Origin: Thermodesulfobacteriota bacterium
GTDB taxonomy: Bacteria > Desulfobacterota > Desulfobulbia > Desulfobulbales > SURF-16
Reading direction: 5' to 3'
Assembly: GCA_039715015.1 (NCBI GenBank)
Contig: JBDLIE010000033.1
Location: 1-27,662, forward strand
DNA length: 27,662 nt
The translations under genes and the position numbers were made by a program. The notes under the pieces were generated by a model. The model did no database searches and was not told the DNA's origin. It was given only the letters and a program-made list of their open reading frames with translations. Below, piece by piece: positions 4,634 to 21,906 of this stretch; position 1 is the first letter of the stretch, and each line of letters begins with the position of its first letter.

Positions 4634-4679
4634 GCATTAAAAAACCCCAGGCCCTTCAGGGCCTGGGGTTTTTTAATGC
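4634..4679. terminator. Bidirectional intrinsic terminator between convergent CBS-ACT and PBP1A genes
   Basis: Perfect 21-bp inverted repeat GCATTAAAAAACCCCAGGCCC-TTCA-GGGCCTGGGGTTTTTTAATGC, with T-tracts on both strands. Confidence 0.92.
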
Positions 4680-9958: not shown

Positions 9959-10165
9959 ATGGCTCGTGAATGTGCAATCTGCGGGAAAAAGCCGGTAACC
10001 GGCAATAATGTAAGTCATGCTCATAATAAAACCCGTCGTCGCTGGCTGCCAAATCTGCAAAGCGTAAGAATGGCCACCCCAGGTGGTAATTCTAAAAAGG
10101 TTCGGGTTTGTACCAGATGTCTGCGTTCCGGTGCCGTTGTTAAACCGGCAGCAAGAACTGCCTAG
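9959..10165 (+). CDS. rpmB: 50S ribosomal protein L28 (Zn-binding CxxC...CxxC form)
   Basis: [43 protein letters not shown]. Confidence 0.98.
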
Positions 10166-10184: not shown

Positions 10185-10226
10185 TAATAAAAAAGCCCGC
10201 TGGTTTTCCAGCGGGCTTTTTTATTA
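10185..10226. terminator. Bidirectional intrinsic terminator (rpmB / convergent rel operon)
   Basis: Perfect 19-bp stem TAATAAAAAAGCCCGCTGG-TTTT-CCAGCGGGCTTTTTTATTA. Confidence 0.92.
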
Positions 10227-10227
10227 T

Positions 10228-10357
10228 GGTTCTTCGCCGATTAGCTGGAATGACTTTGTTTTTGCCACGGAATCCACGGAAAAACTGGCATAAAGTGGAA
10301 AAACTTTAGCCTGCCAACTTGTACCTAACCACCTTTCCCGGACTTCGACGAAGAACC
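10228..10357. mobile_element. MITE-like element (130 bp) with ISL3-like ends
   Basis: Terminal inverted repeats GGTTCTTCGCCGA / TCGACGAAGAACC (12/13). Flanks TTTATTAT / TTTTTTAT (7/8, TSD-like). Left end matches that of the 20770 element at 14/16. Confidence 0.65.
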
Positions 10358-10389
10358 TTTTTTATTTGTTCATTACGGCAAAGGGATTG

Positions 10390-10566
10390 TTACTTGTCTC
10401 TTTTCTTTTTCTTATCTTCTTTTTTCTTTGGTTCGGTGATAAAACCCAGGCCGCCGCACTCGGGGCACTCCTCCCAGGAGATGAGAAATCTACTCACCCC
10501 TTTGAAAAAGCTGATCTGGCCTGATCCCCCGCAGGCTGCGCATGTTTTTTCATGATCTGACCCCAT
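10390..10566 (-). CDS. Small CxxCxGxG (DnaJ-type) zinc-finger protein, 58 aa
   Basis: Manually translated: MGSDHEKTCAACGGSGQISFFKGVSRFLISWEECPECGGLGFITEPKKKEDKKKKRDK. Starts 25 nt after the rel stop, with AAGG upstream. Below the ORF-track length cutoff. Confidence 0.8.
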   Translation of the reverse strand: MGSDHEKTCAACGGSGQISFFKGVSRFLISWEECPECGGLGFITEPKKKEDKKKKRDK

Positions 10567-10591
10567 AACCTTACCCTTGCCAGTTTTTTGT

Positions 10592-12760
10592 TTACTGGCG
10601 CTTTGCCTCCATTACGCCATTAAGTTGGCGAATGCGCTGCAACACTGCTGACAGATGATCGAGGCTGGTGACCTCAATGATAAGGTTAAGACGTGCCACC
10701 CTGTCCTTGGCAGAGTGGGCATCAATATTGACGATATTGGCGTCAGCATCACTGAGGACATTACAAAGTTCGGCAAGAAGACCTTTGTGGTCTTGGGAAA
10801 TGACGTTGATCTGGGCTCGGTGGCTTTTTTGGGAAGTACTCCAGCGAACCTCAAGCCAGCGCTGCGGGTCGGTGTTGAGGAGATTGGGACATGTCGCCTT
10901 GTGGACGGAAATGCCGCGGCCTGCCGTGATAAAGCCCATGATCTCCTCTCCGGGCATAGGCATGCAGCATTGGCTGATGCGGATCATCATATCGTGGATG
11001 CCGTCGATGGTGATGGCATCGTCTGATTCCTTTCCTGGCGCGACTGTTGCCGCGGGAATTTCCTGAATTTTTTCTTCTTGCTCCTCCACTTCTGTTTGAT
11101 CAGGAAGAAGGATGGCCGTGAACTGTTTGGTGGTGATCTTGCCAGAGCCTACTCTGACAAGAAGATCCTGCAGGGAGTTACAGTGCAGCTTCTTTAGGAG
11201 CAGTTGCAGTTCTCTGCTTTTAGTAAGCTTTTTGAGGGAAAGGGTGTGTTTCTTCAGTTCCCTCTCAGTAATCTCCTCGCCGATTCGCAGGGATTTCTCA
11301 TGCTCCTCCTGACGCAGCCAATGGCGAATACGGCTTTTGGCCCGCCCGGTTTTTACCAGGTTGAGCCAGCCCTGATGAGGATGCTGATTCTGGCTGGTAA
11401 TGATCTCAACAGCATTACCGTTTTTGAGCTCTGTCTTCAGCGACACCATGGTGCCGTTAATCTTGGCGCCGGTGCAGTGATTGCCAACCTCGGTATGGAT
11501 TGCATAGGCAAAATCAAGTGGGGTGGAACCGCCCGGTAATTCCTTGACCTCACCATTGGGGGTGAGGACATAGATCTTTTTGCCTGGTGCAAGTTCGTCC
11601 TTAACGGTGTCGAGAAACTCCTTGGGATCTTTCAGCTCCTGGAGCCAATGGACGAGCTGTTTTAACCACTGGAAGGTAGAGGCGTCCTGTTCGGAAATTT
11701 TTGCGCCTTCTTTGTATGCCCAGTGGGCAGCAATTCCTTCTTTGGCGATCTTGTCCATCTCCTCAGTACGGATCTGGATCTCCATGAATTCACCAGACGG
11801 GCCAATCACGGAGGTATGCAGAGATTGATACATATTGGGCTTTGGCTGGGAGATATAATCCTTGATACGATGGTCAATGGGCGTCCACAGGGAATGAACC
11901 ATACCCAAGGCCTGGTAACATTCACGTACCGTTTTTAAGATGATCCGAAAGGCGACCTTGTCATAGACCTTGTCCAGGGTAATCTTCTGAACAAGGAGTT
12001 TTCGGTAAATTGAGAGAAGATGTTTAGGGCGGCCAAGAATATTAAACTCACTAATGCCGTGCTCTTTAAGCTTTTCGGAAAGGAGATTCTTAATGTCAGT
12101 GACGTATTTTTCGCGGTCCCCCAGAGAGGAGTCTATCCTGCCCTCAAGGTCCTGATATTCCTTGGGGTGAAGGACTGAGAAGGCCCGGTCCTCAAGCTCT
12201 CGTTTCATCCAGTCAATACCCAAACGGCTGGCTAGTGGGGCGTAGAGGTCCAGAGTCTCCTGGGCAAATTCCACCTGCTGTTCGGGGGGGAAGTCGAGGA
12301 TCTGCATGTCATTGAGACGGTCGGCAAGCTTGACCAGCAAAACGCGAATGTCTGATGACATGGCCAGAAGCATCTTGCGGATGTTTTCGGCCTGATAATC
12401 GATTTTCGAGTTGTACTGGACCTCAGATATCTTGGTGGCGCCGCTAACAATATGGGCCACATCCTTGCCGAATTTTTTGCTGATCAGGGCTTCGTCAATC
12501 TCGGTGTCGTTTTCTTTGAGGATGCCGTGGAAGAGGCCTGAAACAATGGTGTCCACATCAAGACGCATGGCAGCGAGGATCTGCGCCACCGAGAGGACGT
12601 GGGTAATGTAGGGGTCACCGTTTGGCCGGACATGCCCTTCGTGGGCCTCGGCGGCAAAGGCGTATGCCTCTTTGATAACCGGGATCTGTTGGGCAGGCAG
12701 GTATCCCTGGGCCCGGTTCAGGAGGTCATCAATGGTGATATGGTGTTCAAACTGCGTCAT
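10592..12760 (-). CDS. Long RelA/SpoT homologue ((p)ppGpp synthetase; hydrolase domain degenerate)
   Basis: HD-SYNTH-TGS-ZFD-ACT architecture: YAPLASRLGI, GRPKH, RIKDYISQPKPNMYQSLHT, EIQIRT, GIAAHWAYK, TPLDFAYAIHT, CCMPMPGE, HKATC. Confidence 0.95.
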   Translation of the reverse strand: MTQFEHHITIDDLLNRAQGYLPAQQIPVIKEAYAFAAEAHEGHVRPNGDPYITHVLSVAQILAAMRLDVDTIVSGLFHGILKENDTEIDEALISKKFGKDVAHIVSGATKISEVQYNSKIDYQAENIRKMLLAMSSDIRVLLVKLADRLNDMQILDFPPEQQVEFAQETLDLYAPLASRLGIDWMKRELEDRAFSVLHPKEYQDLEGRIDSSLGDREKYVTDIKNLLSEKLKEHGISEFNILGRPKHLLSIYRKLLVQKITLDKVYDKVAFRIILKTVRECYQALGMVHSLWTPIDHRIKDYISQPKPNMYQSLHTSVIGPSGEFMEIQIRTEEMDKIAKEGIAAHWAYKEGAKISEQDASTFQWLKQLVHWLQELKDPKEFLDTVKDELAPGKKIYVLTPNGEVKELPGGSTPLDFAYAIHTEVGNHCTGAKINGTMVSLKTELKNGNAVEIITSQNQHPHQGWLNLVKTGRAKSRIRHWLRQEEHEKSLRIGEEITERELKKHTLSLKKLTKSRELQLLLKKLHCNSLQDLLVRVGSGKITTKQFTAILLPDQTEVEEQEEKIQEIPAATVAPGKESDDAITIDGIHDMMIRISQCCMPMPGEEIMGFITAGRGISVHKATCPNLLNTDPQRWLEVRWSTSQKSHRAQINVISQDHKGLLAELCNVLSDADANIVNIDAHSAKDRVARLNLIIEVTSLDHLSAVLQRIRQLNGVMEAKRQ

Positions 12761-12798
12761 TCTTTATCTGATTATATGGAGAGTAGATTTTCGTTTAA

Positions 12799-14514
12799 TT
12801 AGGCAATTGCATTTTTGATAAGGTCGACCACGGTTGAAACCGTCTCACTAAGGGGTGTGCTGAGTGTTTCGCCGTTAGCCCGGCTCCGTACCTCGATCAG
12901 GCCTTCTTTGCTGAAACTCTTGCCCACCGTGATTCTGAAGGGGATACCAATGAGGTCTGCATCCTTAAATTTAATGCCAGGGCGTTCATCACGATCATCA
13001 AGGATGACCTCGATATTTTTTTTCTGCAGAGCCTGATAGACAACCTCTGCTGCTTTGCTGATCTCTTCATCCTTGGGAGAAAGGTTGAGAACTAAAGCCT
13101 GGACCGGCGCTATGGTTGCAGGAAGTTTAATGCCGTCTTTGTCGTGGTGTTGCTCAATGGCAGCGGCTACAACTCTGCTGACACCAATGCCGTAGCACCC
13201 CATAATAAAGGGGGTTTCAGCTCCCTGGTCATCAAGGAAAGTGGCCTTGAGGGACTCGGAATATTTTGTGCCCAGTTTGAAGATATGACCAACCTCAATT
13301 CCTTTGGTGAGCTCAAGTTCGCTGCCGCATAGAGAGCAGCGATCATCGGCAGTCACTTTGCGAATATCACCGCTTAAGGTCGGGGTAAAATCACGGCCCA
13401 TATTAGCGTTTAGCATGTGGAAGTTCTTTTCGTTCGCGCCCACTGCAAAATTGCGCATATTGTCAATTTCCAGATCAGCCACAGTTCTTATTTTCAGGCC
13501 AATGGGGCCGAGATAACCAGACGGGGTGCCGGTGGCATCGAAGATCTCTTTGTCATCAGCCATACGCATATCTTCATCGCTGACACCGAGAATATTGGCA
13601 AGTTTGATATCTTCAACCTCATGGTCGCCGCGCAGGAGAACTGCCACGGGTTCATCTTTGACGATATACACCAAGGTCTTGACCAGCTCTGCTGGTTTGA
13701 TATCAAGGAAATCACAGACCACCTGTACCTTACGTTTGCCCGGAGTTTCTATCTTTTTGATCTCTTGCAGAGCAATATTCTGGGGGGCGCTGCTCTTTTG
13801 ACATACCGCCTTTTCCATATTGGCGGCATAGGAGCATGATTTACAGATAACAATGGTGTCCTCGCCGGTATCGGCCAGCACCATGAATTCGTGGGAAAAG
13901 CTGCCGCCAATGGAGCCCGAGTCGGCATCCACGGCCCGGAAGGTCAGGCCGCAGCGAGTAAAGATCTGCTGGTAGGCATCCTTCATCTTCTCATAGGTCT
14001 CTTCAGCTCCTTTGTCCGTGGCATCAAAACTATAGCCATCCTTCATGATGAATTCCCGGCCACGCATAAGACCGAAACGGGGCCGGGCCTCGTCACGGTA
14101 TTTGGTCTGGATCTGGTAGAGGTTGATGGGCAGCTGTTTGTAGGAATGGATGTTTTTCCGTGCCACATCAGTAATGACCTCTTCATGGGTGGGGCCCAAA
14201 CAAAAATCGCGGTTATGGCGATCCTGGACGCGGAGCAACTCCTTGCCATACTCCTGCCAGCGCCCCGATTCCTCCCAGAGGTCAGCAGGTTGAACCATGG
14301 GCATAAGAAGTTCCTGGGCACCGGCCCTATTCATCTCTTCCCGGACAATCTGTTCAACCTTGCGGATGGCGGCAAGGCCCAAGGGCAGGTAGGTGTAAGA
14401 GCCACTGGTAAGCTTGCGGATATAACCGGCCCGCAGCAAGAGTTTGTGACTGATGACCTCTGCCTCTGAGGGGTCTTCTTTTAATGTCGGGATGAGAAGC
14501 TGGGAAAAACGCAT
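12799..14514 (-). CDS. proS: Proline--tRNA ligase (bacterial type with editing domain)
   Basis: LGPTHEE, RDEARPRFGLMRGREF, SHEF, IEVGHIFKLG, MGCYGIGVSR, DDRDERPGIKFKDADLIG. Confidence 0.98.
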   Translation of the reverse strand: MRFSQLLIPTLKEDPSEAEVISHKLLLRAGYIRKLTSGSYTYLPLGLAAIRKVEQIVREEMNRAGAQELLMPMVQPADLWEESGRWQEYGKELLRVQDRHNRDFCLGPTHEEVITDVARKNIHSYKQLPINLYQIQTKYRDEARPRFGLMRGREFIMKDGYSFDATDKGAEETYEKMKDAYQQIFTRCGLTFRAVDADSGSIGGSFSHEFMVLADTGEDTIVICKSCSYAANMEKAVCQKSSAPQNIALQEIKKIETPGKRKVQVVCDFLDIKPAELVKTLVYIVKDEPVAVLLRGDHEVEDIKLANILGVSDEDMRMADDKEIFDATGTPSGYLGPIGLKIRTVADLEIDNMRNFAVGANEKNFHMLNANMGRDFTPTLSGDIRKVTADDRCSLCGSELELTKGIEVGHIFKLGTKYSESLKATFLDDQGAETPFIMGCYGIGVSRVVAAAIEQHHDKDGIKLPATIAPVQALVLNLSPKDEEISKAAEVVYQALQKKNIEVILDDRDERPGIKFKDADLIGIPFRITVGKSFSKEGLIEVRSRANGETLSTPLSETVSTVVDLIKNAIA

Positions 14515-14595
14515 GATAAGTCCTGGTAATAAAGTGATTTTTTATAATAGAGCCCTTTTAGGGCTATTTAATATCTTTAATAGAAGTCACGATTG

Positions 14596-15672
14596 TTATT
14601 TACTTTGTACTTCCTTGCTCATGGCATCAAGTTCTTTGACAAAGACTTCAAAAAGATCTGCCTCAGGCACCTTTTTGTAGAGCTGGCCTTTTTTGAAGAT
14701 AATACCAACGCCATTACCTCCGGCAAGACCAATGTCAGCCTCTTTGGCTTCCCCGGGTCCGTTAACCACACAGCCCATGACCGCCACTTTAAGAGGGGTT
14801 ACCATTTTCTGGATATGGGCTTCCACCTTTTCCGCGAGACCAAAGAGGTTAATCTGACAGCGGCCGCAGGTGGGGCAGCTGATCAATTCGGGGCCACGTT
14901 CTCTAATCTTTAGAGAGCGCAGAAGCTCGTAGCAGACGCGGATTTCTTCAACCGGATCGCGGGTTAGAGAAATGCGGAAGGTGTCGCCGATTCCTTCGTA
15001 AAGCAGGATGCCGAGGGCAACACTTGATTTGACGGTGCCGCCGATAAGACCGCCGGCCTCGGTGACTCCTAAGTGCAAAGGATAATCTGTTGCCTCAGAG
15101 AGCTTACGGTAGGCATCAATGGTGGTGAGCACATCAGAAGATTTGATGGAAATTTTTATCTCATAAAAACCAAGATCTTCAAGTAGGGCAACATTCTTAA
15201 GGGCGCTCTCCACCAAGGCTGCTGGGACAGGGTGGCCATATTTTTTGAGGATTTCTTTTTCCACCGAGCCGGAATTAACACCGACCCGGATAGGAACATG
15301 GTGACTCTTGGCAGCATCCACAACTTTTTTCAGCTTTTCTTTGCCGCCAATATTGCCAGGGTTGATGCGAATCCCCTGGGCGCCATGCTCCATACTGGCC
15401 ACGGCCAGGCGGGAATCAAAATGGATATCGGCAATAAGAGGGATGGTGATCTGCTCTCTGATATTTTTGATGGCCTCAGCCGCCTCAATGTCAAGAACTG
15501 CCACCCTGATGATCTCACATCCTGCACCTTCAAGGGCATGGATTTGCGCCACGGTACTCTCGACATTGCGGGTGTCCGTGTTGGTCATCGATTGGACGGT
15601 AATGGGTGCATCACCGCCTATTTTGACGTTGTCCAAGGTAATTTGGCGCGTTTTTTTTCTTGTAATCATCAT
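14596..15672 (-). CDS. ispG: (E)-4-hydroxy-3-methylbut-2-enyl-diphosphate synthase
   Basis: VQSMTNT, ADIHF, RINPGNIG, RVGVNSGS, PLHLGVTEAG, SCPTCGRC, VMGCVVNGPGE. The start may be 15669. Confidence 0.98.
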   Translation of the reverse strand: MMITRKKTRQITLDNVKIGGDAPITVQSMTNTDTRNVESTVAQIHALEGAGCEIIRVAVLDIEAAEAIKNIREQITIPLIADIHFDSRLAVASMEHGAQGIRINPGNIGGKEKLKKVVDAAKSHHVPIRVGVNSGSVEKEILKKYGHPVPAALVESALKNVALLEDLGFYEIKISIKSSDVLTTIDAYRKLSEATDYPLHLGVTEAGGLIGGTVKSSVALGILLYEGIGDTFRISLTRDPVEEIRVCYELLRSLKIRERGPELISCPTCGRCQINLFGLAEKVEAHIQKMVTPLKVAVMGCVVNGPGEAKEADIGLAGGNGVGIIFKKGQLYKKVPEADLFEVFVKELDAMSKEVQSK

Positions 15673-15846
15673 CGTTCTCTTTTGCGAAAAATAACAAGCG
15701 AGTCACCATACCTGAAAACGGTAATTTCGGCATTATTTATCCGCAACATCGAGGTGTATGTCGGGAAAAAGTTGCGGTTTCTGTTCACTGGGATGCAGGT
15801 TGAGCAAGCTGTTGAAATTATGGGCTCACCTTGCTACTATGCCGCC

Positions 15847-16047
15847 ATGAAATTATTCATCTCCCTTATCGGCATGGTATTGATTTTTGAGTCATTGCCC
15901 TATATTGCCTTTCCTGATTCCATGCGCCAGTGGCTCAGGCAGCTATCGGAAATGGAATCGCCGGTTCTTCGTATCTTTGGTTTTTTTGCCCTGGGTGCTG
16001 GTTTGCTTCTCTGTTACTTGGCCCAGCGCACCTCGTGGTTCTCCTAA
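15847..16047 (+). CDS. DUF2065-family small membrane protein, 66 aa
   Basis: MKLFISLIGMVLIFESLPYIAFP...LRIFGFFALGAGLLL fits the DUF2065 pattern. It is the 3' part of the over-extended 15232..16047 ORF. Confidence 0.8.
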   Translation: MKLFISLIGMVLIFESLPYIAFPDSMRQWLRQLSEMESPVLRIFGFFALGAGLLLCYLAQRTSWFS

Positions 16048-16069
16048 ATTATTTCGTGTTTCATATAAC

Positions 16070-17161
16070 GTGAGTGCAGATCATTTTGATATACAGGCCT
16101 ATGACTTTGAGCTGCCTGCAGAGTTAATTGCCCAACATCCTGCTCCCAGCCGTGATGCCTCAAAACTTCTCTCATATCATGCCAAAGGGCTAATTATTGA
16201 AGATCGGCCTTTTCGGTCAGTGGTGGATTCTTTCTCCAGCGGTGATGTGCTGGTGGTCAATAATACCAAGGTTTTTCCAGCCCGCCTTCTTGGCAAGAAA
16301 GAGACAGGTGGCAAGGTGGAGCTTTTACTGCTCTCTTTTCCTGCCATGGAGCCGATTGAGGTTGCAGGCCAACCCGGCTGGCGTGAAGTGGAGGCAGTGG
16401 GCCTTGTTAAGAGTTCCAAGCGGCCGCGGGTTGGTACCACTCTTCTCTTTGGTGAAAATCTGAAGGCAGTTGTCCATGGGCTCCTTGATGATGGCAAGGT
16501 CGTTGTCCTTCTTCGCTTCACAGGCGCCCTGTATGATCAACTTGATCAATCAGGGCAGCTTCCCTTACCGCCTTATATCAATCGAGATAAGGGGCAAACT
16601 CCGGAGGATAGACAGCGCTACCAGACTGTCTATGCCGCCCATACCGGCGCTGTGGCGGCTCCCACCGCTGGACTCCATTTTACCAATGAAGTCATAGAGG
16701 AGATCAAAAAAAAGGGGGTGATCATTGCCCCGGTTACCCTCCACGTTGGTTATGGCACCTTTGCGCCGGTGCGGGTCAAAGATATCCGCGACCATCAGAT
16801 CCACTCCGAGTATCTGGTGGTTTCGGAAGAGACGGCAGATCTTGTCAATAAGGCAAAGGCCGCTGGTGGCAGAGTATGGGCGGTGGGTACCACCAGTATC
16901 AGGGCCTTGGAGTTTGCCGCTGATGACCAAGGCCATCTTCATGCCAGGGAAGGAGCGTGTGAGCTTTATATTTATCCTGGCTATCGTTTCAAGATTGTTG
17001 AGAACGTCATTACCAATTTCCATCTGCCCCAGTCTTCACTGCTCTTTTTGGTCAGTGCCCTGATAGGACGAGATGAATTGCTCCGTTGTTATCGCCATGC
17101 CATAAAGGAAAAGTATCGCTTTTTTAGCTATGGTGATGCCATGATGATTGTCACGGTCTGA
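16070..17161 (+). CDS. queA: S-adenosylmethionine:tRNA ribosyltransferase-isomerase
   Basis: YDFELPAELIAQHP, VFPARL, PLPPYI, YQTVYA, AAPTAGLHF, LHVGYGTF, VGTT, TNFHLPQSSL, YRFFSYGDAM. Start reassigned to the in-frame GTG at 16070. Confidence 0.97.
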   Translation: MSADHFDIQAYDFELPAELIAQHPAPSRDASKLLSYHAKGLIIEDRPFRSVVDSFSSGDVLVVNNTKVFPARLLGKKETGGKVELLLLSFPAMEPIEVAGQPGWREVEAVGLVKSSKRPRVGTTLLFGENLKAVVHGLLDDGKVVVLLRFTGALYDQLDQSGQLPLPPYINRDKGQTPEDRQRYQTVYAAHTGAVAAPTAGLHFTNEVIEEIKKKGVIIAPVTLHVGYGTFAPVRVKDIRDHQIHSEYLVVSEETADLVNKAKAAGGRVWAVGTTSIRALEFAADDQGHLHAREGACELYIYPGYRFKIVENVITNFHLPQSSLLFLVSALIGRDELLRCYRHAIKEKYRFFSYGDAMMIVTV

Positions 17162-17207
17162 AACTTAGGTCCAGTGGGGTGGAATGATTGTGACTTATTG
17201 TGCAAAG

Positions 17208-17242
17208 AAAAAAGCCGCAAACCATAAAGGTCAGCGGCTTTT
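17208..17242. terminator. Probable bidirectional terminator (queA / FmdB gene)
   Basis: AAAAAAGCCGC-AAACCATAAAGGTCA-GCGGCTTTT hairpin between convergent genes. Confidence 0.75.
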
Positions 17243-17262
17243 GAAACAGATGCGAAGATCTC

Positions 17263-17532
17263 TTAGGAAGCGCAGGGACAGCTCGCGGCGTTAGGGCAGG
17301 ATGCTTTTTTCTCTGTGCTGTTGGCACCAGTGCTTTTTGTGTTGGCATTACCGTTGCTGCTGTAGCCGTCTGCATACCAGCCGCCGCCTTTAAGGTGAAA
17401 GGCGCTCTGGGAGATAAGTTTCTTTACCGAGCCGTCACATTCCGGACAGGTGGCCAGTGGCGCCTCAGACATCGATTGGCACATCTCAGTAACTTTATGG
17501 CATTCTTCACATTCATATTCATATATGGGCAT
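17263..17532 (-). CDS. FmdB-family zinc ribbon protein
   Basis: MPIYEYECEEC...CPECDG...KLIS...FHLKGGGWY signature. GGAGG RBS. Confidence 0.92.
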   Translation of the reverse strand: MPIYEYECEECHKVTEMCQSMSEAPLATCPECDGSVKKLISQSAFHLKGGGWYADGYSSNGNANTKSTGANSTEKKASCPNAASCPCAS

Positions 17533-17609
17533 TGGTCACCCTCCTACGGAACTGCTTAGTTTTATTTGAGAATTTTACAGATATTTTTAGACCTGCTTGA
17601 AGGTACGTA

Positions 17610-17638
17610 AACATAATGTTGGAGCCGTTTTTTGTCAA
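17610..17638 (-). promoter_or_regulatory. Probable sigma70 promoter for the FmdB gene
   Basis: TTGACA-N17-TATGTT on the minus strand. Confidence 0.6.
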
Positions 17639-17795
17639 TGGCCGCAGGTGAAAAAGAGATTAAGTGTCATGCTGGTTCTGGCCGATAGGTTGTTTATCAT
17701 TTTTTATTACTAGTGTTTGCCCGCCAACTTTATATATTCTCTATTTTAGAAAGTCGATCCAAGTAACAACTAAACTTAAAATTGTAGGCTGCAAC

Positions 17796-18113
17796 GTGCA
17801 ACAAATTCTCTGTCAACAGGCTGCTGAAGGGATGGTGCTGGCCAAGGATGTCCAGACCCCGGAAGGACGTACCCTTTGTGGGAAGAGCACCCCTCTTACC
17901 GAGGCCATGATTGGCCGCTTTATTAAAATGGAAATCAGCCATATCGCGGTTGAGGGTCATCCCGTAAAGGTGGCAGGTGAAAAAAGTTTAAAAGAAGAGC
18001 TGTTGGATATTGAAAAAAGGTTCTCCCGTGTGAAGCATGTGCCACCGTTAATGTTTTTGAAAAAGAGGATTATGGAAAGAATGGTCGAGTCTCGCAAGGA
18101 GCAGGAGGGCTGA
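17796..18113 (+). CDS. Hypothetical ~105-aa protein resembling the N-terminal module of HD-GYP proteins
   Basis: GMVLAKDVQTPEGRTLCGKSTPLTE pattern. Start taken at the in-frame GTG 17796 (uncertain). Stop overlaps the HDOD start (TGATG). Confidence 0.75.
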   Translation: MQQILCQQAAEGMVLAKDVQTPEGRTLCGKSTPLTEAMIGRFIKMEISHIAVEGHPVKVAGEKSLKEELLDIEKRFSRVKHVPPLMFLKKRIMERMVESRKEQEG

Positions 18114-18982
18114 TGGAAAAAGATAATAAAGCAGAATTTCGCAGGGCTCTTCGCGAGGTAAAGAACCTTCCCACCTTGCCCGGTATTGTTGCCAAACTTA
18201 CTCGGATGGCTGATGATCCAGATACCACCACCGAGCAGATGGGCAAGGTGATCAGTAAGGATCATATCCTTGCCGCTAAACTATTAAAGCTTGTTAACTC
18301 AGCCTTTTATGGGTTTCCTCAAAAAATTAGCTCCTTATCCAGCGCTATTATCCTACTTGGTTTTAACGTTATAAAAAGTTTGATCATCAGCGCCTCAATC
18401 TTTGAGCTGATGGAGAGCTCTGATGTGGAGCTTTGGGAGCACTCGCTGGGGACAGCGGTTGCGGCAAGTATCCTCGCTAAGCGTCTGGGGATCAAAGATC
18501 CAGAAGAGGTGAGTACCGCCGGCCTTATTCACGACATCGGCAAGGTGGCAGTGAAGATGGAGCTGCCGGAGCAGTATGATGAAATCTTGAATACGGTTGA
18601 AATGAAACAGATCTCTATGGCTGAGGCGGAACGGCTCGTTCTTGGCCTTGATCACGCCGAAGTTGGGGGGTGGCTTGCCAAGGGCTGGTTTCTGCCCAAG
18701 AAGCTTGTTGAACCCATTGCCTGTCATCATCTTCCCAAAAAATCAAAAGAAGAACCCCTTGCCACTGCCATTCTTCATTTTAGCGATGTCTTGATCCGGG
18801 GCCTTGGTTATGGGCATGGTGCCGATATTTGGGTCCCGCCTCTGAGTAAAGTCGCCTGGGAAGAATTGGGGCTTTCTGCCGCTGATCTCGATGAGGTCCT
18901 TGAGGAGGTTGAAGAGAATCTCTGGGATGTGAAAGGCTTCAGCCTTGATATCCAAGCCGAATTAGAAAATAAATCAGCGTAA
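18113..18982 (+). CDS. HDOD domain protein
   Basis: LPTLP, LLKLVNSAFYG, AIILLG, LWEHS, AGLIHDIGK, DHAEVGGWLAKGWFLP, IACHH. Confidence 0.93.
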   Translation: MEKDNKAEFRRALREVKNLPTLPGIVAKLTRMADDPDTTTEQMGKVISKDHILAAKLLKLVNSAFYGFPQKISSLSSAIILLGFNVIKSLIISASIFELMESSDVELWEHSLGTAVAASILAKRLGIKDPEEVSTAGLIHDIGKVAVKMELPEQYDEILNTVEMKQISMAEAERLVLGLDHAEVGGWLAKGWFLPKKLVEPIACHHLPKKSKEEPLATAILHFSDVLIRGLGYGHGADIWVPPLSKVAWEELGLSAADLDEVLEEVEENLWDVKGFSLDIQAELENKSA

Positions 18983-19003
18983 GTTCTACGGAGTTTTCTG
19001 CTT

Positions 19004-19927
19004 ATGGCACGCCTTCTTTTTGCCGGTGAAGTCTTGGACAGTGAAGAGCCGAGTCTCATCCTGAAGGCCAGTGGCTATCAGATCCTCAGTTTCTCCTCCT
19101 CCCAGGATGCTATCGCCGTTGTTCTTGAGGATCCCCCGGACATGCTCATTATCGACAAAGAGCTTCCGGGATGTATGGACCTTCTTAATGCAGCTAAGGC
19201 CTGTTTGCAGAAAACCAATATGCCCATCCTGCTTGCTGTTGAGGCAAAGGGACTCAGCAGCCTGGACTGGCAAGAATATTCCGTTGATGATGTCCTCGTC
19301 AAACCGGTTGATTCGGAAAATCTCTTTGCCCGAATCGGCCTAGCCCAAGCCAGGATGGGCAGGGTTTTTGATAATAATCCCCTGAGCCGTCTTCCCGGTA
19401 ATACCTCTATTCTTCAAGCCATCCAGTCGACTATTGAGTTGGAGGAAAGCTATGGTGTCTGCTATGTGGATATTGATAATTTCAAACCATATAATGACCG
19501 CTACGGTTTTTCTCAGGGTGATGATGTCATACTTATGGTGGCGCGGATTATTGTTAATGTCATGGAAGAGGTGGCTCGCCATAAGAGTTTTGTAGGACAT
19601 GTAGGGGGTGATGACTTCTTGTTTATTGTTCCTGAAGAAATGATTGATGAAACATGCAAACGTGTGCTTGCTCATTTTGAGGTGGTTCGTAATCTGTTCC
19701 TTACAGAGGAGGATGTTGAAGCAGGTTGTTATGTTGAAAAAGACCGCCAGGGAAGGGAAACAAAATTTGGTTTGTTAAGCCTGTCTATTGCTGTCATTCC
19801 GACAGGAAATCATGAATTCAGCCATTCTGCTGAAGTCTCTAATGCCGCATCTCAACTAAAACATTTTGTTAAGCAGAAGGAAGGGTCTAACTATGTGATA
19901 GATCGCCGTCGTAGCAGCAAAAGTTGA
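19004..19927 (+). CDS. Receiver-like domain + GGDEF (GGDDF variant) diguanylate cyclase
   Basis: N-terminal PDMLIID...LVKP receiver fold. NPLSRLPGN, DIDNFKPYNDRYG, GHVGGDDF, LSLSIA. Confidence 0.9.
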   Translation: MARLLFAGEVLDSEEPSLILKASGYQILSFSSSQDAIAVVLEDPPDMLIIDKELPGCMDLLNAAKACLQKTNMPILLAVEAKGLSSLDWQEYSVDDVLVKPVDSENLFARIGLAQARMGRVFDNNPLSRLPGNTSILQAIQSTIELEESYGVCYVDIDNFKPYNDRYGFSQGDDVILMVARIIVNVMEEVARHKSFVGHVGGDDFLFIVPEEMIDETCKRVLAHFEVVRNLFLTEEDVEAGCYVEKDRQGRETKFGLLSLSIAVIPTGNHEFSHSAEVSNAASQLKHFVKQKEGSNYVIDRRRSSKS

Positions 19928-20134
19928 CCTCTCTTTTGTCGTTTTCTTAGGCGCTATTTTCTGTTGATGGTCTTATTGCTGTCTCCTGCCAGGTGGGCTA
20001 TGTGTTCGTTTTTTCTGTAAATTGTTTAAGTTTGTGGTTGGCCTGTCTTCTTTATGTCTGTTTTTGTAACTATGTGTAGGTCGCCTTTGTGAGATATCTG
20101 CAAATTATTTATTGGATAAAAATAGCAGTAATAT

Positions 20135-20163
20135 TTGATATAAAGAAAATGTAGTGATATGGT
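20135..20163 (+). promoter_or_regulatory. Probable sigma70 promoter for mucR
   Basis: TTGATA-N17-TATGGT preceded by TG-n (extended -10), in AT-rich DNA. Confidence 0.55.
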
Positions 20164-20230
20164 ATGTTTCGCTTTTTACTAGGGGCTAATATATTCTAAC
20201 AACAACAAGAGAAAAATTACAGAGGAGAGA

Positions 20231-20707
20231 ATGATGGCTAAATCCCTTTTGGAGATGGCTGCTGATATTGTTAAATCACAATGCCAAGGTACCTCAATGT
20301 CAACCGAAGATGTTACTGCTGCCCTGAGCAACACCTTCAACTCATTGCAGTCTCTGCAAACCATGGAGTCACAAGGTGAAGCAGGCGAGGTTGCAGGTGC
20401 ACCATCCGCAGTTGTTGATATTAAACCTGAGAAGTCGATTCTGAAAAATAAGATTATCTGTCTTGAGTGTGGAGAGTCTTTTAAAATGCTCTCTCCCAAG
20501 CATCTTCGTTCCCATGATCTTGATGGACGTTCTTATCGTCTGAAGCATGGCTTGCCGCTTCGTCAGCCTCTATGCGCCAGGGCACTTTCTGAAAAACGTA
20601 AGAAGGCTGGTAAGGCGCGTGGACTTCCCGATAACCTTCGCAAGGCAATCGAGGCAAGAAAGGGCAAAACAAAAAAGAAAGCTGGAAGGCCACGTAAGAA
20701 AAAATAA
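20231..20707 (+). CDS. MucR/Ros family transcriptional regulator (C2H2 Zn finger)
   Basis: MAADIVKSQ N-terminus, ICLECGESFKMLSPKHLRSH, YRLKHGLP...PL, SEKRK. Basic C-terminal tail. Confidence 0.93.
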   Translation: MMAKSLLEMAADIVKSQCQGTSMSTEDVTAALSNTFNSLQSLQTMESQGEAGEVAGAPSAVVDIKPEKSILKNKIICLECGESFKMLSPKHLRSHDLDGRSYRLKHGLPLRQPLCARALSEKRKKAGKARGLPDNLRKAIEARKGKTKKKAGRPRKKK

Positions 20708-20730
20708 TTTTAGGCCATTATTGATGTTTG

Positions 20731-20769
20731 AAGGGGGATCTGGTTTGTAGCAGATCCCCTTTATTTTTT
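20731..20769 (+). terminator. Intrinsic terminator after mucR
   Basis: GGGGATCTG-GTTTGTAG-CAGATCCCC stem followed by TTTATTTTTT. Confidence 0.85.
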
Positions 20770-21002
20770 GGTTCATCGCAGATTATTGTGGGGCGGTCTG
20801 TACCCTGTGCCTTTCCAACTCCGAATGTTGTTTTGTTCATTTTCGCCCACTTCTCTGGCTGCTTGCCAAAACCAAAAACGAACCAAGAAAGGGCACCCTT
20901 TACAGCCCTGGCCTTCGGCTCCCTGCTCGTTCAGGTCTGAATGGGGAAAGGCAAAATCAAAACCTTTCAAGCCAGAGGTCCCACGGAAATCCGTGATGAA
21001 CC
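20770..21002. mobile_element. MITE-like element (233 bp) with ISL3-like ends and a perfect 9-bp target duplication
   Basis: Terminal inverted repeats GGTTCATCGCAGATT / AATCCGTGATGAACC (13/15, extending imperfectly to about 30 bp). Flanked by TTATTTTTT at 20761-20769 and 21003-21011. Confidence 0.75.
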
Positions 21003-21117
21003 TTATTTTTTGGCGCAGGGACCTTTTTTCTATGTTAAGAAATACGTGGTTGTAGAGGTCTGATTTTGGTCATTTTTATGGTTACGAAATGGTATTTGAT
21101 GTTTTGAGAGTTTATTT

Positions 21118-21906
21118 ATGATCGGAATTTTTGATTCTGGCGTTGGTGGCATGACTGTGGCCCGCGCTGTTGAAGAGGTACTGCCGGAGAGGTCAATCAT
21201 CTATTTTGGTGATGTGGCCAGAACTCCATACGGATCCAAGAGCCCAGAAACCATTAGCCGCTATGCTCGCCAAAATAGTGATTTTCTCCTCGCCAAGGGA
21301 GCCAAAATAATAATAGTTGCCTGTAATTCGGCGGCAAGTGTCGCTGGTCATCTTCTTCAGCAAGAGTACGACGTACCCATCATGGAAGTGATTAGCCCGG
21401 CTGTAAACCAGGCTGTCCAGCACTCAAATTCCGGTCGAATTGGGGTTGTCGGTACCAGGGCTACTATCAATTCCAATGTTTACGAGCAAGAGATTACAGC
21501 ACTCAACCCTAAGGCCCGGGTGTTTTCACAGCCATGCCCCTTGCTGGTCCCATTGGTGGAAGAGGGATGGCTGGCTAAGCGGGAGACAAAGATGATCCTT
21601 CGTCGCTATCTCCACCCACTGAAATCCCATGGGGTGGATACCTTGGTTCTCGGTTGTACCCATTACCCCCTTTTAGGTCATATGATTCAGCCACGCATGG
21701 GCCGCCAGGTACGGGTCATTGATTCCTCTCTGGCCGTGGCCCATGAACTCAAAAGTTTCTTGGCGGATAATCCTTCTCTTGCCGATAGCCTGGCAAAGGG
21801 GGGAGAACGGCATTATTATGTATCTGATGTCACTGAGGCGGCCCAAAGTACGGCCAGCCGCATATTCGGTCGGCAAATGAATTTAGAATTAGCGCAGGTT
21901 TCCTAA
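21118..21906 (+). CDS. murI: Glutamate racemase
   Basis: IGIFDSGVGG, PYGSKS, VACNSA, LGCTHYP. Confidence 0.98.
   Translation: MIGIFDSGVGGMTVARAVEEVLPERSIIYFGDVARTPYGSKSPETISRYARQNSDFLLAKGAKIIIVACNSAASVAGHLLQQEYDVPIMEVISPAVNQAVQHSNSGRIGVVGTRATINSNVYEQEITALNPKARVFSQPCPLLVPLVEEGWLAKRETKMILRRYLHPLKSHGVDTLVLGCTHYPLLGHMIQPRMGRQVRVIDSSLAVAHELKSFLADNPSLADSLAKGGERHYYVSDVTEAAQSTASRIFGRQMNLELAQVS

What the first reader, a model, noticed from the sequence alone, without database searches (positions are those of the whole stretch)
10228..21002. Two MITE-like elements share ends but not interiors, and both sit in terminator T-tracts
Seen: the elements at 10228-10357 and 20770-21002 begin GGTTCTTCGCCGATTA and GGTTCATCGCAGATTA (14/16 identical). 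They end ...CGGACTTCGACGAAGAACC and ...CGGAAATCCGTGATGAACC. Their interiors show no similarity I can detect. Each begins directly at the T-tail of an intrinsic terminator (rpmB, mucR), and the duplicated target is that T-tail. Known: ISL3-family IS have GG-starting inverted repeats and make ~8-bp duplications in AT-rich targets. From memory, IS1001-type ends start GGTTCATCG. Inference: this is a family of non-autonomous ISL3-mobilised elements with variable cargo that uses terminator tails as safe landing sites. Two copies within ~10 kb suggests many genome-wide.
Basis: partly seen in the sequence, partly recalled or inferred. Interest (0 to 1): 0.75.

Follow-up and report, generated by a model that had tools for sequence, protein, structure and literature searches.

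The report
Two ISL3 mini-transposons in terminator tails
Both inserts are real, small non-coding jumping elements that borrow the ends of a common insertion sequence (ISL3) and landed in the T-rich tails of gene terminators; this is an ordinary kind of element, and the one unusual point is that each carries a different, older DNA repeat inside it.

Summary
Confirmed, with corrections. Both elements are ISL3-type MITEs. Six congeners lack each insert. An intact 1,301-bp ISL3 with e2-type ends exists in a relative, and e1's right end matches an ISL3 transposase remnant in this genome at 23 of 24 nt.

They belong to two families, not one family with random cargo. Family A (e1, 129-235 bp) carries palindromic arms that elsewhere flank GxxExxY genes. 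Family B (e2, 166-374 bp) wraps an older, covarying ~175-nt repeat ('X') that occurs without ISL3 ends across the order and has no Rfam match.

The terminator link is real: 17 of 25 T-side junctions abut a hairpin versus 13-31% of intergenic T-tracts, and full-length ISL3s elsewhere do the same (38 of 49). But a plain sequence motif, GC-rich | T8 | GC-rich, predicts the same rate (56-75%), so hairpin recognition is not needed. 'Safe landing' is untested. e2 has an exact 9-bp duplication; e1's is imperfect.

ISL3 MITEs are published (Microcystis), and this scan has reported terminator-tail ISL3 MITEs in several other genomes. New members of a known kind; interest 0.3.

The parts
10228..10357 (+). 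e1: family-A ISL3-type MITE, 130 bp, minimal form
   Evidence: 90% full-length sister on C20; relatives in G007/G004; absent in 6 of 6 aligned congeners
10228..10251 (+). e1 left terminal inverted repeat, resembles the left end of the A-type ISL3 remnant on C13 (19 of 24 nt)
10334..10357 (-). e1 right terminal inverted repeat, 23 of 24 nt identical to the right end that follows an ISL3 transposase C-terminus on C13
10264..10281 (+). REP-like arm of the kind that encloses a GxxExxY (PF13366) gene as an inverted pair in congener G007; also occurs free in this genome
10185..10226 (.). Bidirectional intrinsic-terminator-like hairpin after rpmB (19-bp perfect inverted repeat including A and T tails); relA converges on it from the other side, so e1 lies in the relA 3' region
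   Evidence: (I11); terminator function inferred
10217..10225 (+). Left copy of the e1 target (T-tail), repeated at 10358-10366; 2 extra nt lie between it and the element
9959..10165 (+). rpmB (50S ribosomal protein L28), host gene upstream of e1
20770..21002 (+). e2: family-B ISL3-type MITE, 233 bp, internally shortened form
   Evidence: absent in 6 of 6 aligned congeners (G002 has a different, longer spacer)
20770..20793 (+). e2 left terminal inverted repeat, partly decayed (18 of 24 nt to the ISL3 right end; other B copies match it at 22 of 22)
20979..21002 (-). e2 right terminal inverted repeat, 22 of 24 nt identical to the right end of the B-type ISL3 (C14 edge; intact copy L053)
20835..20946 (+). 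Captured repeat X, lacking about 85 nt (its long central helix) at 20917/20918 relative to fuller copies
20734..20769 (+). mucR terminator-like hairpin and T-tail; 20761-20769 is the 9-bp target duplicated at 21003-21011
20231..20707 (+). mucR (Ros/MucR regulator), host gene upstream of e2; murI follows at 21118

Best explanation
e1 and e2 are members of two separate families of non-autonomous MITEs mobilised in trans by closely related ISL3 transposases (about 1.31-kb elements, GGTTC-starting ends). SHOWN: their ends are ISL3 ends; they are insertions into sites that are empty in congeners; the target duplication is 8 +/- 1 bp of A/T; the duplication usually starts exactly where a GC-rich run turns into a T-run. 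INFERRED: the transposase prefers the linear sequence GC-rich | T8 | GC-rich, of which terminator tails are the commonest instance. Insertion behind the tail leaves hairpin plus U-tract intact and regenerates a T-tract, so such copies persist and sites get re-used. INFERRED: each family began when ISL3 ends came to enclose an existing host repeat (GxxExxY-cassette arms in A, structured repeat X in B). The interiors then changed length by loss or gain of hairpins. The cores are most likely passengers.
For: Empty sites in 6 of 6 aligned congeners at each locus. Ends joined to ISL3 transposase C-termini in this genome (C13, C14, C39). Intact element L053:233-1533 with PF01610 and PF13542; its two ends lie at this genome's contig edges, C61 90% and C14 88%. 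A 1,304-bp stand-alone contig spanning it, depth 248, is in run X1, which may be the window's source sample. 19 full-length ISL3s among 80 loci; 9 of the 15 with both flanks have exact 8-bp duplications and 11 of 15 have 7-9 bp. Stem-to-element spacing is 8 nt in 38 of 62 hairpin-positive junctions. Motif-weighted sites in this genome carry hairpins at 56% (all) or 75% (intergenic), against 68% observed (P 0.17 and 0.84). Interiors are unrelated to the ISL3 body but match free repeats. X lacks paired ISL3 ends at 29 of 29 loci outside this genome. The end pattern was found in only 5 of 40 genomes of the family, all in one genus.
Against: No transposition was observed. No intact transposase is assembled in G000, and no intact A-type element with exactly e1's ends was recovered (only remnants: C13, and contig-edge ends in G106). 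e1's duplication is imperfect, and only 5 of 12 two-ended copies have an exact 8-9-bp duplication. The motif was trained on sites that are mostly terminators, so it cannot exclude a hairpin contribution. A simpler matched null (three G/C then T-run) still left an excess: 17 of 19 versus 192 of 382, P 5e-4. Some end-less X copies in G000 may be decayed B elements. Gene calls for the nulls were crude ORF calls.
Confidence: 0.85

Rival explanations
1. The transposase, or a host factor such as paused RNA polymerase, recognises the terminator itself (hairpin or termination complex), so targeting is structural and not just a sequence preference.
For: T-side junctions abut hairpins at 17 of 25 here, 15 of 27 in congeners and 38 of 49 in distant genomes, against 0 of 17, 3 of 31 and 9 of 41 on A-sides. 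Spacing from the stem is tightly 8 nt. An excess remains over a three-G/C-plus-T-run null.
Against: A 20-position linear motif removes the excess. GC-richness also appears on the far side of the T-run, where no hairpin lies. 8 of 25 sites have no strong hairpin.
Confidence: 0.2
2. Insertion is into any A/T run, and the terminator excess comes from survival: other insertions are purged, or an upstream terminator is kept because it silences the transposase.
For: All sites seen are survivors. Terminator-like sequences upstream of many IS families are reported and read as transposase attenuation (PMC13548323, passages).
Against: The excess holds against T-tracts in convergent spacers, where insertion should be mildest (17 of 25 versus 125 of 397, P 3e-4). 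MITEs have no transposase to silence. Either end abuts the hairpin (8 left, 8 right, 1 unassigned). Near-identical multi-copy IS ends in other genomes show the same pattern.
Confidence: 0.15
3. The interiors are functional (for example X is a regulatory or stabilising RNA) and the MITEs are kept because they deliver them to 3' ends of genes.
For: X covaries strongly: 20 of 29 pairs show two-sided changes, score 0.50 versus 0.18 shuffled and at most 0.16 when slid. G-U pairs point to one strand.
Against: e2 has lost X's main helix. Neither site is conserved in congeners. Orientation to the terminator is unbiased. Covariation is also expected of a mobile single-stranded element.
Confidence: 0.08
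4. The intervals are fixed host RNA genes or chance look-alikes.
For: Both fold into long hairpins.
Against: Absent from congeners; ISL3 ends and target duplications; no Rfam match at either site or in 10 loci holding copies.
Confidence: 0.01

Closest known systems
ISL3-mobilised 187-nt MITE of Microcystis aeruginosa PCC 7806 (PMC11448079; section 21 and passages read)
   Same: Short non-coding element, imperfect terminal repeats shared with ISL3 elements (GGCTCTTCG there), 8-nt target duplication, stem-loop fold, tens of copies.
   Different: That element has 31-33 identical copies, some inside genes, and the word terminator does not occur in the main text. Here copies are diverged (70-90%), form two families and carry recognisable foreign repeats.
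Autonomous ISL3-family insertion sequences (Pfam PF01610/PF13542), e.g. L053 and the annotated ISL3 transposase WP_172693579.1 element on plasmid pMKPA34-1
   Same: Same GGTTC-starting ends, 8-bp A/T duplications and the same GC|T-run target profile.
   Different: e1 and e2 encode nothing, and their interiors are not deletion products of the IS body.
IS elements found beside intrinsic terminators in general (PMC13548323; passages read)
   Same: Terminator-like sequences are over-represented immediately next to ISs.
   Different: That paper stresses IS200/IS605, an upstream position and transposase silencing. ISL3 appears in its main text only in a reference, and its per-family figure S7 was not seen. 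Here either end faces the hairpin, and non-coding elements show the pattern too.
REP/REPIN-like palindromes and hairpin-enclosed small-gene cassettes (GxxExxY, PF13366)
   Same: Family A's interior arms are the same sequences that enclose GxxExxY genes as inverted pairs in G007 and G002.
   Different: Here single arms or empty pairs ride inside ISL3 ends. One literature search for GxxExxY plus repeat returned one unrelated paper.

Membership tests
ISL3-mobilised MITE | Short (<500 bp), no transposase gene, terminal inverted repeats | tested here: met
   130 and 233 bp; ends compared
ISL3-mobilised MITE | Ends match those of an ISL3 transposase element | tested here: met
   e1 right end 23/24 to C13 remnant; e2 right end 22/24 to C14 and intact L053
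ISL3-mobilised MITE | About 8-bp A/T-rich target duplication | tested here: met
   e2 exact 9 bp; e1 7/8 flush; 5 of 12 two-ended copies exact 8-9 bp, 11 of 12 within one mismatch; 8 bp in 9 of 15 full ISL3s
ISL3-mobilised MITE | Multi-copy, with empty orthologous sites | tested here: met
ISL3-mobilised MITE | Mobilised in trans by the transposase | not testable with these tools
   Only indirect: IS ends at contig edges C61 and C14, and a full-length contig in run X1
Simple internal-deletion derivative of ISL3 | Interior homologous to the parent IS | tested here: not met
   No match of the e1 or e2 interior to 20 full ISL3s or the C13 remnant. C13:30943-31201 is such a derivative; e1 and e2 are not.
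   A-type ends went with the A core and B-type ends with X in all two-ended copies viewed; e1 and e2 right ends share only 15 of 24 nt
Catalogued non-coding RNA gene (Rfam) | Match to a family model; conserved position | tested here: not met
Hairpin-duplicating terminator elements (IS1182-type, as described in this scan's notes) | Whole terminator hairpin copied to both sides | tested here: not met
   Only the 8-9-nt tail is duplicated
IS1001 subgroup of ISL3 | Ends and transposase close to IS1001 | not tested
   No IS1001 sequence or paper was available; no ISfinder tool

The most novel reading that the evidence does not exclude
A widespread ISL3 clade truly targets intrinsic terminators (structure or termination complex, not just sequence), and its ends repeatedly capture and spread other repeats. 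One of these, X, is an uncatalogued, order-wide, strand-specific structured element with its own unknown mobility or RNA function, which the MITE now delivers to gene 3' ends.
Probability: 0.15. Interest if true: 0.6.

Novelty: new member of a known kind. Interest (0 to 1): 0.3.

Why it matters
As it stands, modestly. It adds two genus-restricted MITE families and gives a quantitative target profile for a broad ISL3 clade (GC-rich | T8 | GC-rich, duplication starting at the first T). That profile explains why these elements pile up behind terminators without invoking hairpin recognition or transposase silencing, and it makes the point directly testable. It also shows one class of repeat hitch-hiking inside another. 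The loose end worth a specialist's time is repeat X: strongly covarying, present in 31 of 121 genomes of the order searched, and absent from Rfam.

Tried and rejected
Rfam: nothing at either element; only sub-threshold leader hits on terminator hairpins in the window and 0 matches in 10 loci holding copies. ISL3 transposases found in 12 of 40 relatives by PF01610 had no matching ends, apart from one weak end in L012. The matching intact element came from a pattern search that hit 2 of 401 genomes. GxxExxY genes: none in G000, 2 of 4 congeners. Sequencing runs: no RNA holder listed. Reads were laid on the ISL3, so empty alleles of e1 and e2 in the population were not tested. The built-in terminator scan listed the mucR hairpin but not the rpmB one, so my own hairpin test was used; its strict and loose versions gave 17 and 19 of 25. 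Two junctions that abut another element and three with mixed flanks were left out of the 25. Literature, 10 searches: ISL3+MITE+terminator, ISL3+rho-independent terminator+target site (26), an X motif (34, 0 papers), Geobacter multicopy sequences, ISL3+transcription terminator, IS1181+terminator, IS1001 (48), nested MITE/REP, GxxExxY (66), ISL3 target specificity. None of the listings or passages read describes terminator-tail insertion specifically for ISL3, but most subscription papers and the original IS1001 and IS1181 papers are not held. From recall, a preference for T/A runs is already described for IS1001. In PMC2700814, 12 of 19 supplements were searched for X motifs with no hit; the other 7, including the miscellaneous-repeat alignments, were not searched and may describe X. 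Rejected: one family with free cargo; fixed RNA genes; transposase silencing as the cause of the terminator link.
Full report
OBSERVATION. Left ends agree at 14 of 16 nt, and the interiors align no better than shuffles (score reached by 6% of 300). e1 lies between rpmB and the convergent relA, and e2 between mucR and murI. Each follows a strong hairpin and T-tail (-19.3 and -16.7 kcal/mol). e2 has an exact 9-bp duplication. In e1 the T-tail 9-mer is repeated, but two extra bases lie between it and the element, so the flush match is 7 of 8.

THEY ARE INSERTIONS. Of 7 congeners, 6 could be aligned across each site. All 6 keep the rpmB terminator without e1. Five have the short mucR-murI spacer without e2, and G002 has a longer, unrelated spacer. 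In G004 the two flanking matches overlap by exactly 9 bp.

TWO FAMILIES. Seven seed copies hit 69 loci in this genome, partial hits included. At least 3 A-type and 10 B-type copies have both ends. Of 12 tabulated MITE copies, 5 have an exact 8-9-bp duplication and 11 are within one mismatch, which is a weak criterion in A/T runs. Forty stretches fetched from G003, G004 and G007, chosen from the best BLAST hits, show the same two architectures at 129-233 bp (A) and 290-342 bp (B). A 22-nt end pattern was found in 5 of 40 genomes of the family, all in this genus, and never with the reversed control.

THE ENDS ARE ISL3 ENDS. This genome has two PF01610 remnants. On C13 a 259-bp internally deleted ISL3 ends in a repeat 23 of 24 nt identical to e1's right end. 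On C14 and C39 the transposase C-terminus runs into e2-type ends. A pattern spanning the last codons and the right end hit 2 of 401 genomes of the class. One hit is an intact 1,301-bp ISL3 (L053; PF01610 and PF13542). Its left and right ends match G000 contig edges C61 (90%) and C14 (88%). Run X1, possibly the window's own sample and so not independent, holds a 1,304-bp stand-alone contig spanning it at depth 248. This suggests, without proving, an unassembled multi-copy parent. The same pattern gave at least 119 loci in the genome collection. Of 80 examined, 19 are full-length (1,306-1,364 bp), and 9 of the 15 with both flanks have exact 8-bp duplications. In most B copies both ends resemble the IS right end.

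THE INTERIORS ARE OTHER REPEATS. Neither interior matches the IS body. The motif at 10264-10281 occurs 14 times in G000, 11 of them outside MITEs and often as inverted pairs. It encloses a GxxExxY gene in G007. A second 9-nt-unit repeat found in longer A copies encloses a GxxExxY gene in G002. Family B wraps a ~175-nt repeat, X, of which e2 has lost about 85 nt. X matches 31 of 121 genomes in 8 of 17 families of the order. It has no paired ISL3 ends at any of 29 loci outside G000, three of which showed a weak single end-like match. In G000, 16 of 29 X hits have an ISL3-like end nearby and 13 do not; several of those 13 are near contig edges and some may be decayed. Across 20 copies, 20 of 29 predicted pairs show two-sided changes, beating 500 of 500 shuffles and all slid controls on the covariation score; the structure was derived from that same alignment. 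Rfam has no match. Several B copies carry a further nested palindrome pair. The simplest order of events is X first, ISL3 ends later and within this genus; this is inferred from distribution, not from a tree.

TERMINATORS. With a hairpin threshold of -10 kcal/mol, 17 of 27 T-side junctions in G000 abut a hairpin (17 of 25 after dropping two that abut another element), against 0 of 17 A-side junctions. Nulls were 57 of 450 intergenic T-tracts, 100 of 450 near stop codons and 125 of 397 in convergent spacers (P at most 3e-4). Congeners gave 15 of 27 versus 3 of 31, and distant full ISL3s 38 of 49 versus 9 of 41, so this is a trait of the transposase clade and not of the MITEs. The element starts 8 nt after the stem in 38 of 62 cases, and either end may face the hairpin. 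Against structural targeting: a 20-position motif trained only on other genomes (GC-rich, T8, GC-rich) picks unoccupied G000 sites that carry hairpins 56% (all) or 75% (intergenic) of the time, so 17 of 25 is no excess (P 0.17, 0.84). For it: a cruder three-G/C-plus-T-run null left an excess, 17 of 19 versus 192 of 382, and the motif was learnt mostly from terminators. I favour sequence preference with terminators as its main instance. Survival alone is less likely, given the convergent-spacer null. Both window insertions leave hairpin and T-tail in place. 'Safe' is inferred; e1 would lengthen relA's 3' region.

WHAT IS KNOWN. An ISL3-mobilised MITE with similar ends and 8-nt duplications is published for Microcystis (PMC11448079, section 21 read). 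Terminators beside ISs are reported generally (PMC13548323, passages). PMC9208149, PMC7049690 and PMC2700814 were read as passages only and add nothing specific. Ten searches surfaced no paper on ISL3 insertion in terminator tails or on X, within a library that lacks most subscription papers. This scan's own unchecked notes report ISL3-type MITEs in terminator tails in five other windows, and a phylum-wide structured core that may be X.

VERDICT. Real, well explained, two new families of a known kind. Confidence 0.85, interest 0.3. The residual novelty lies in repeat X and in the testable question of motif versus hairpin targeting.

Noticed in passing
G000 C61:1-172 and C64:11-175: Back-to-back elements separated only by a 9-10-nt T-tract (an IS left end next to a B left end; a B left end next to another end), suggesting that the regenerated T-tract is re-used as a target.
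   Followed up: partly
L257:1434-1886 (G002) and L258:1452-1882 (G007): Two different GxxExxY genes, each enclosed by a different inverted repeat pair, sit between the same flanking genes in two congeners, like exchangeable cassettes at one site.
   Followed up: partly
L107-L136; G000 C11:54393-54580, C12:10919-11089: Repeat X: about 175 nt, strongly covarying, strand-asymmetric, often in inverted tandem pairs (L109, L118, L123, L125), no Rfam family. No partner gene was looked for.
   Followed up: partly
G000 C18:34928-35003, C30:28553-28615, C50:18094-18158, C73:8689-8749, C51:1354-1895: A third palindrome family (25 arms in the genome) nests inside X's central helix. On C51 it brackets a short ORF whose start looks like a GIY-YIG nuclease (recalled resemblance, not tested).
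   Followed up: no
G000 C13:30943-31201: A true internal-deletion ISL3 derivative (259 bp) whose two flanks are both T-tracts pointing inward, with no direct repeat, as if produced by recombination between two copies; L168 and L079 look similar.
   Followed up: no
window 4634-4679: Perfect 22-bp inverted repeat between convergent genes, a bidirectional terminator-like site with no insertion.
   Followed up: no
L040/L047 (G002 C80, mucR-murI spacer): The same spacer carries about 630 bp of other, repeat-like sequence in G002, so this spacer has taken up extra DNA independently in two lineages.
   Followed up: no
window 17664-18113: 149-aa ORF with no NCBIfam or Pfam match, directly upstream of an HDOD-domain gene.
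   Followed up: no
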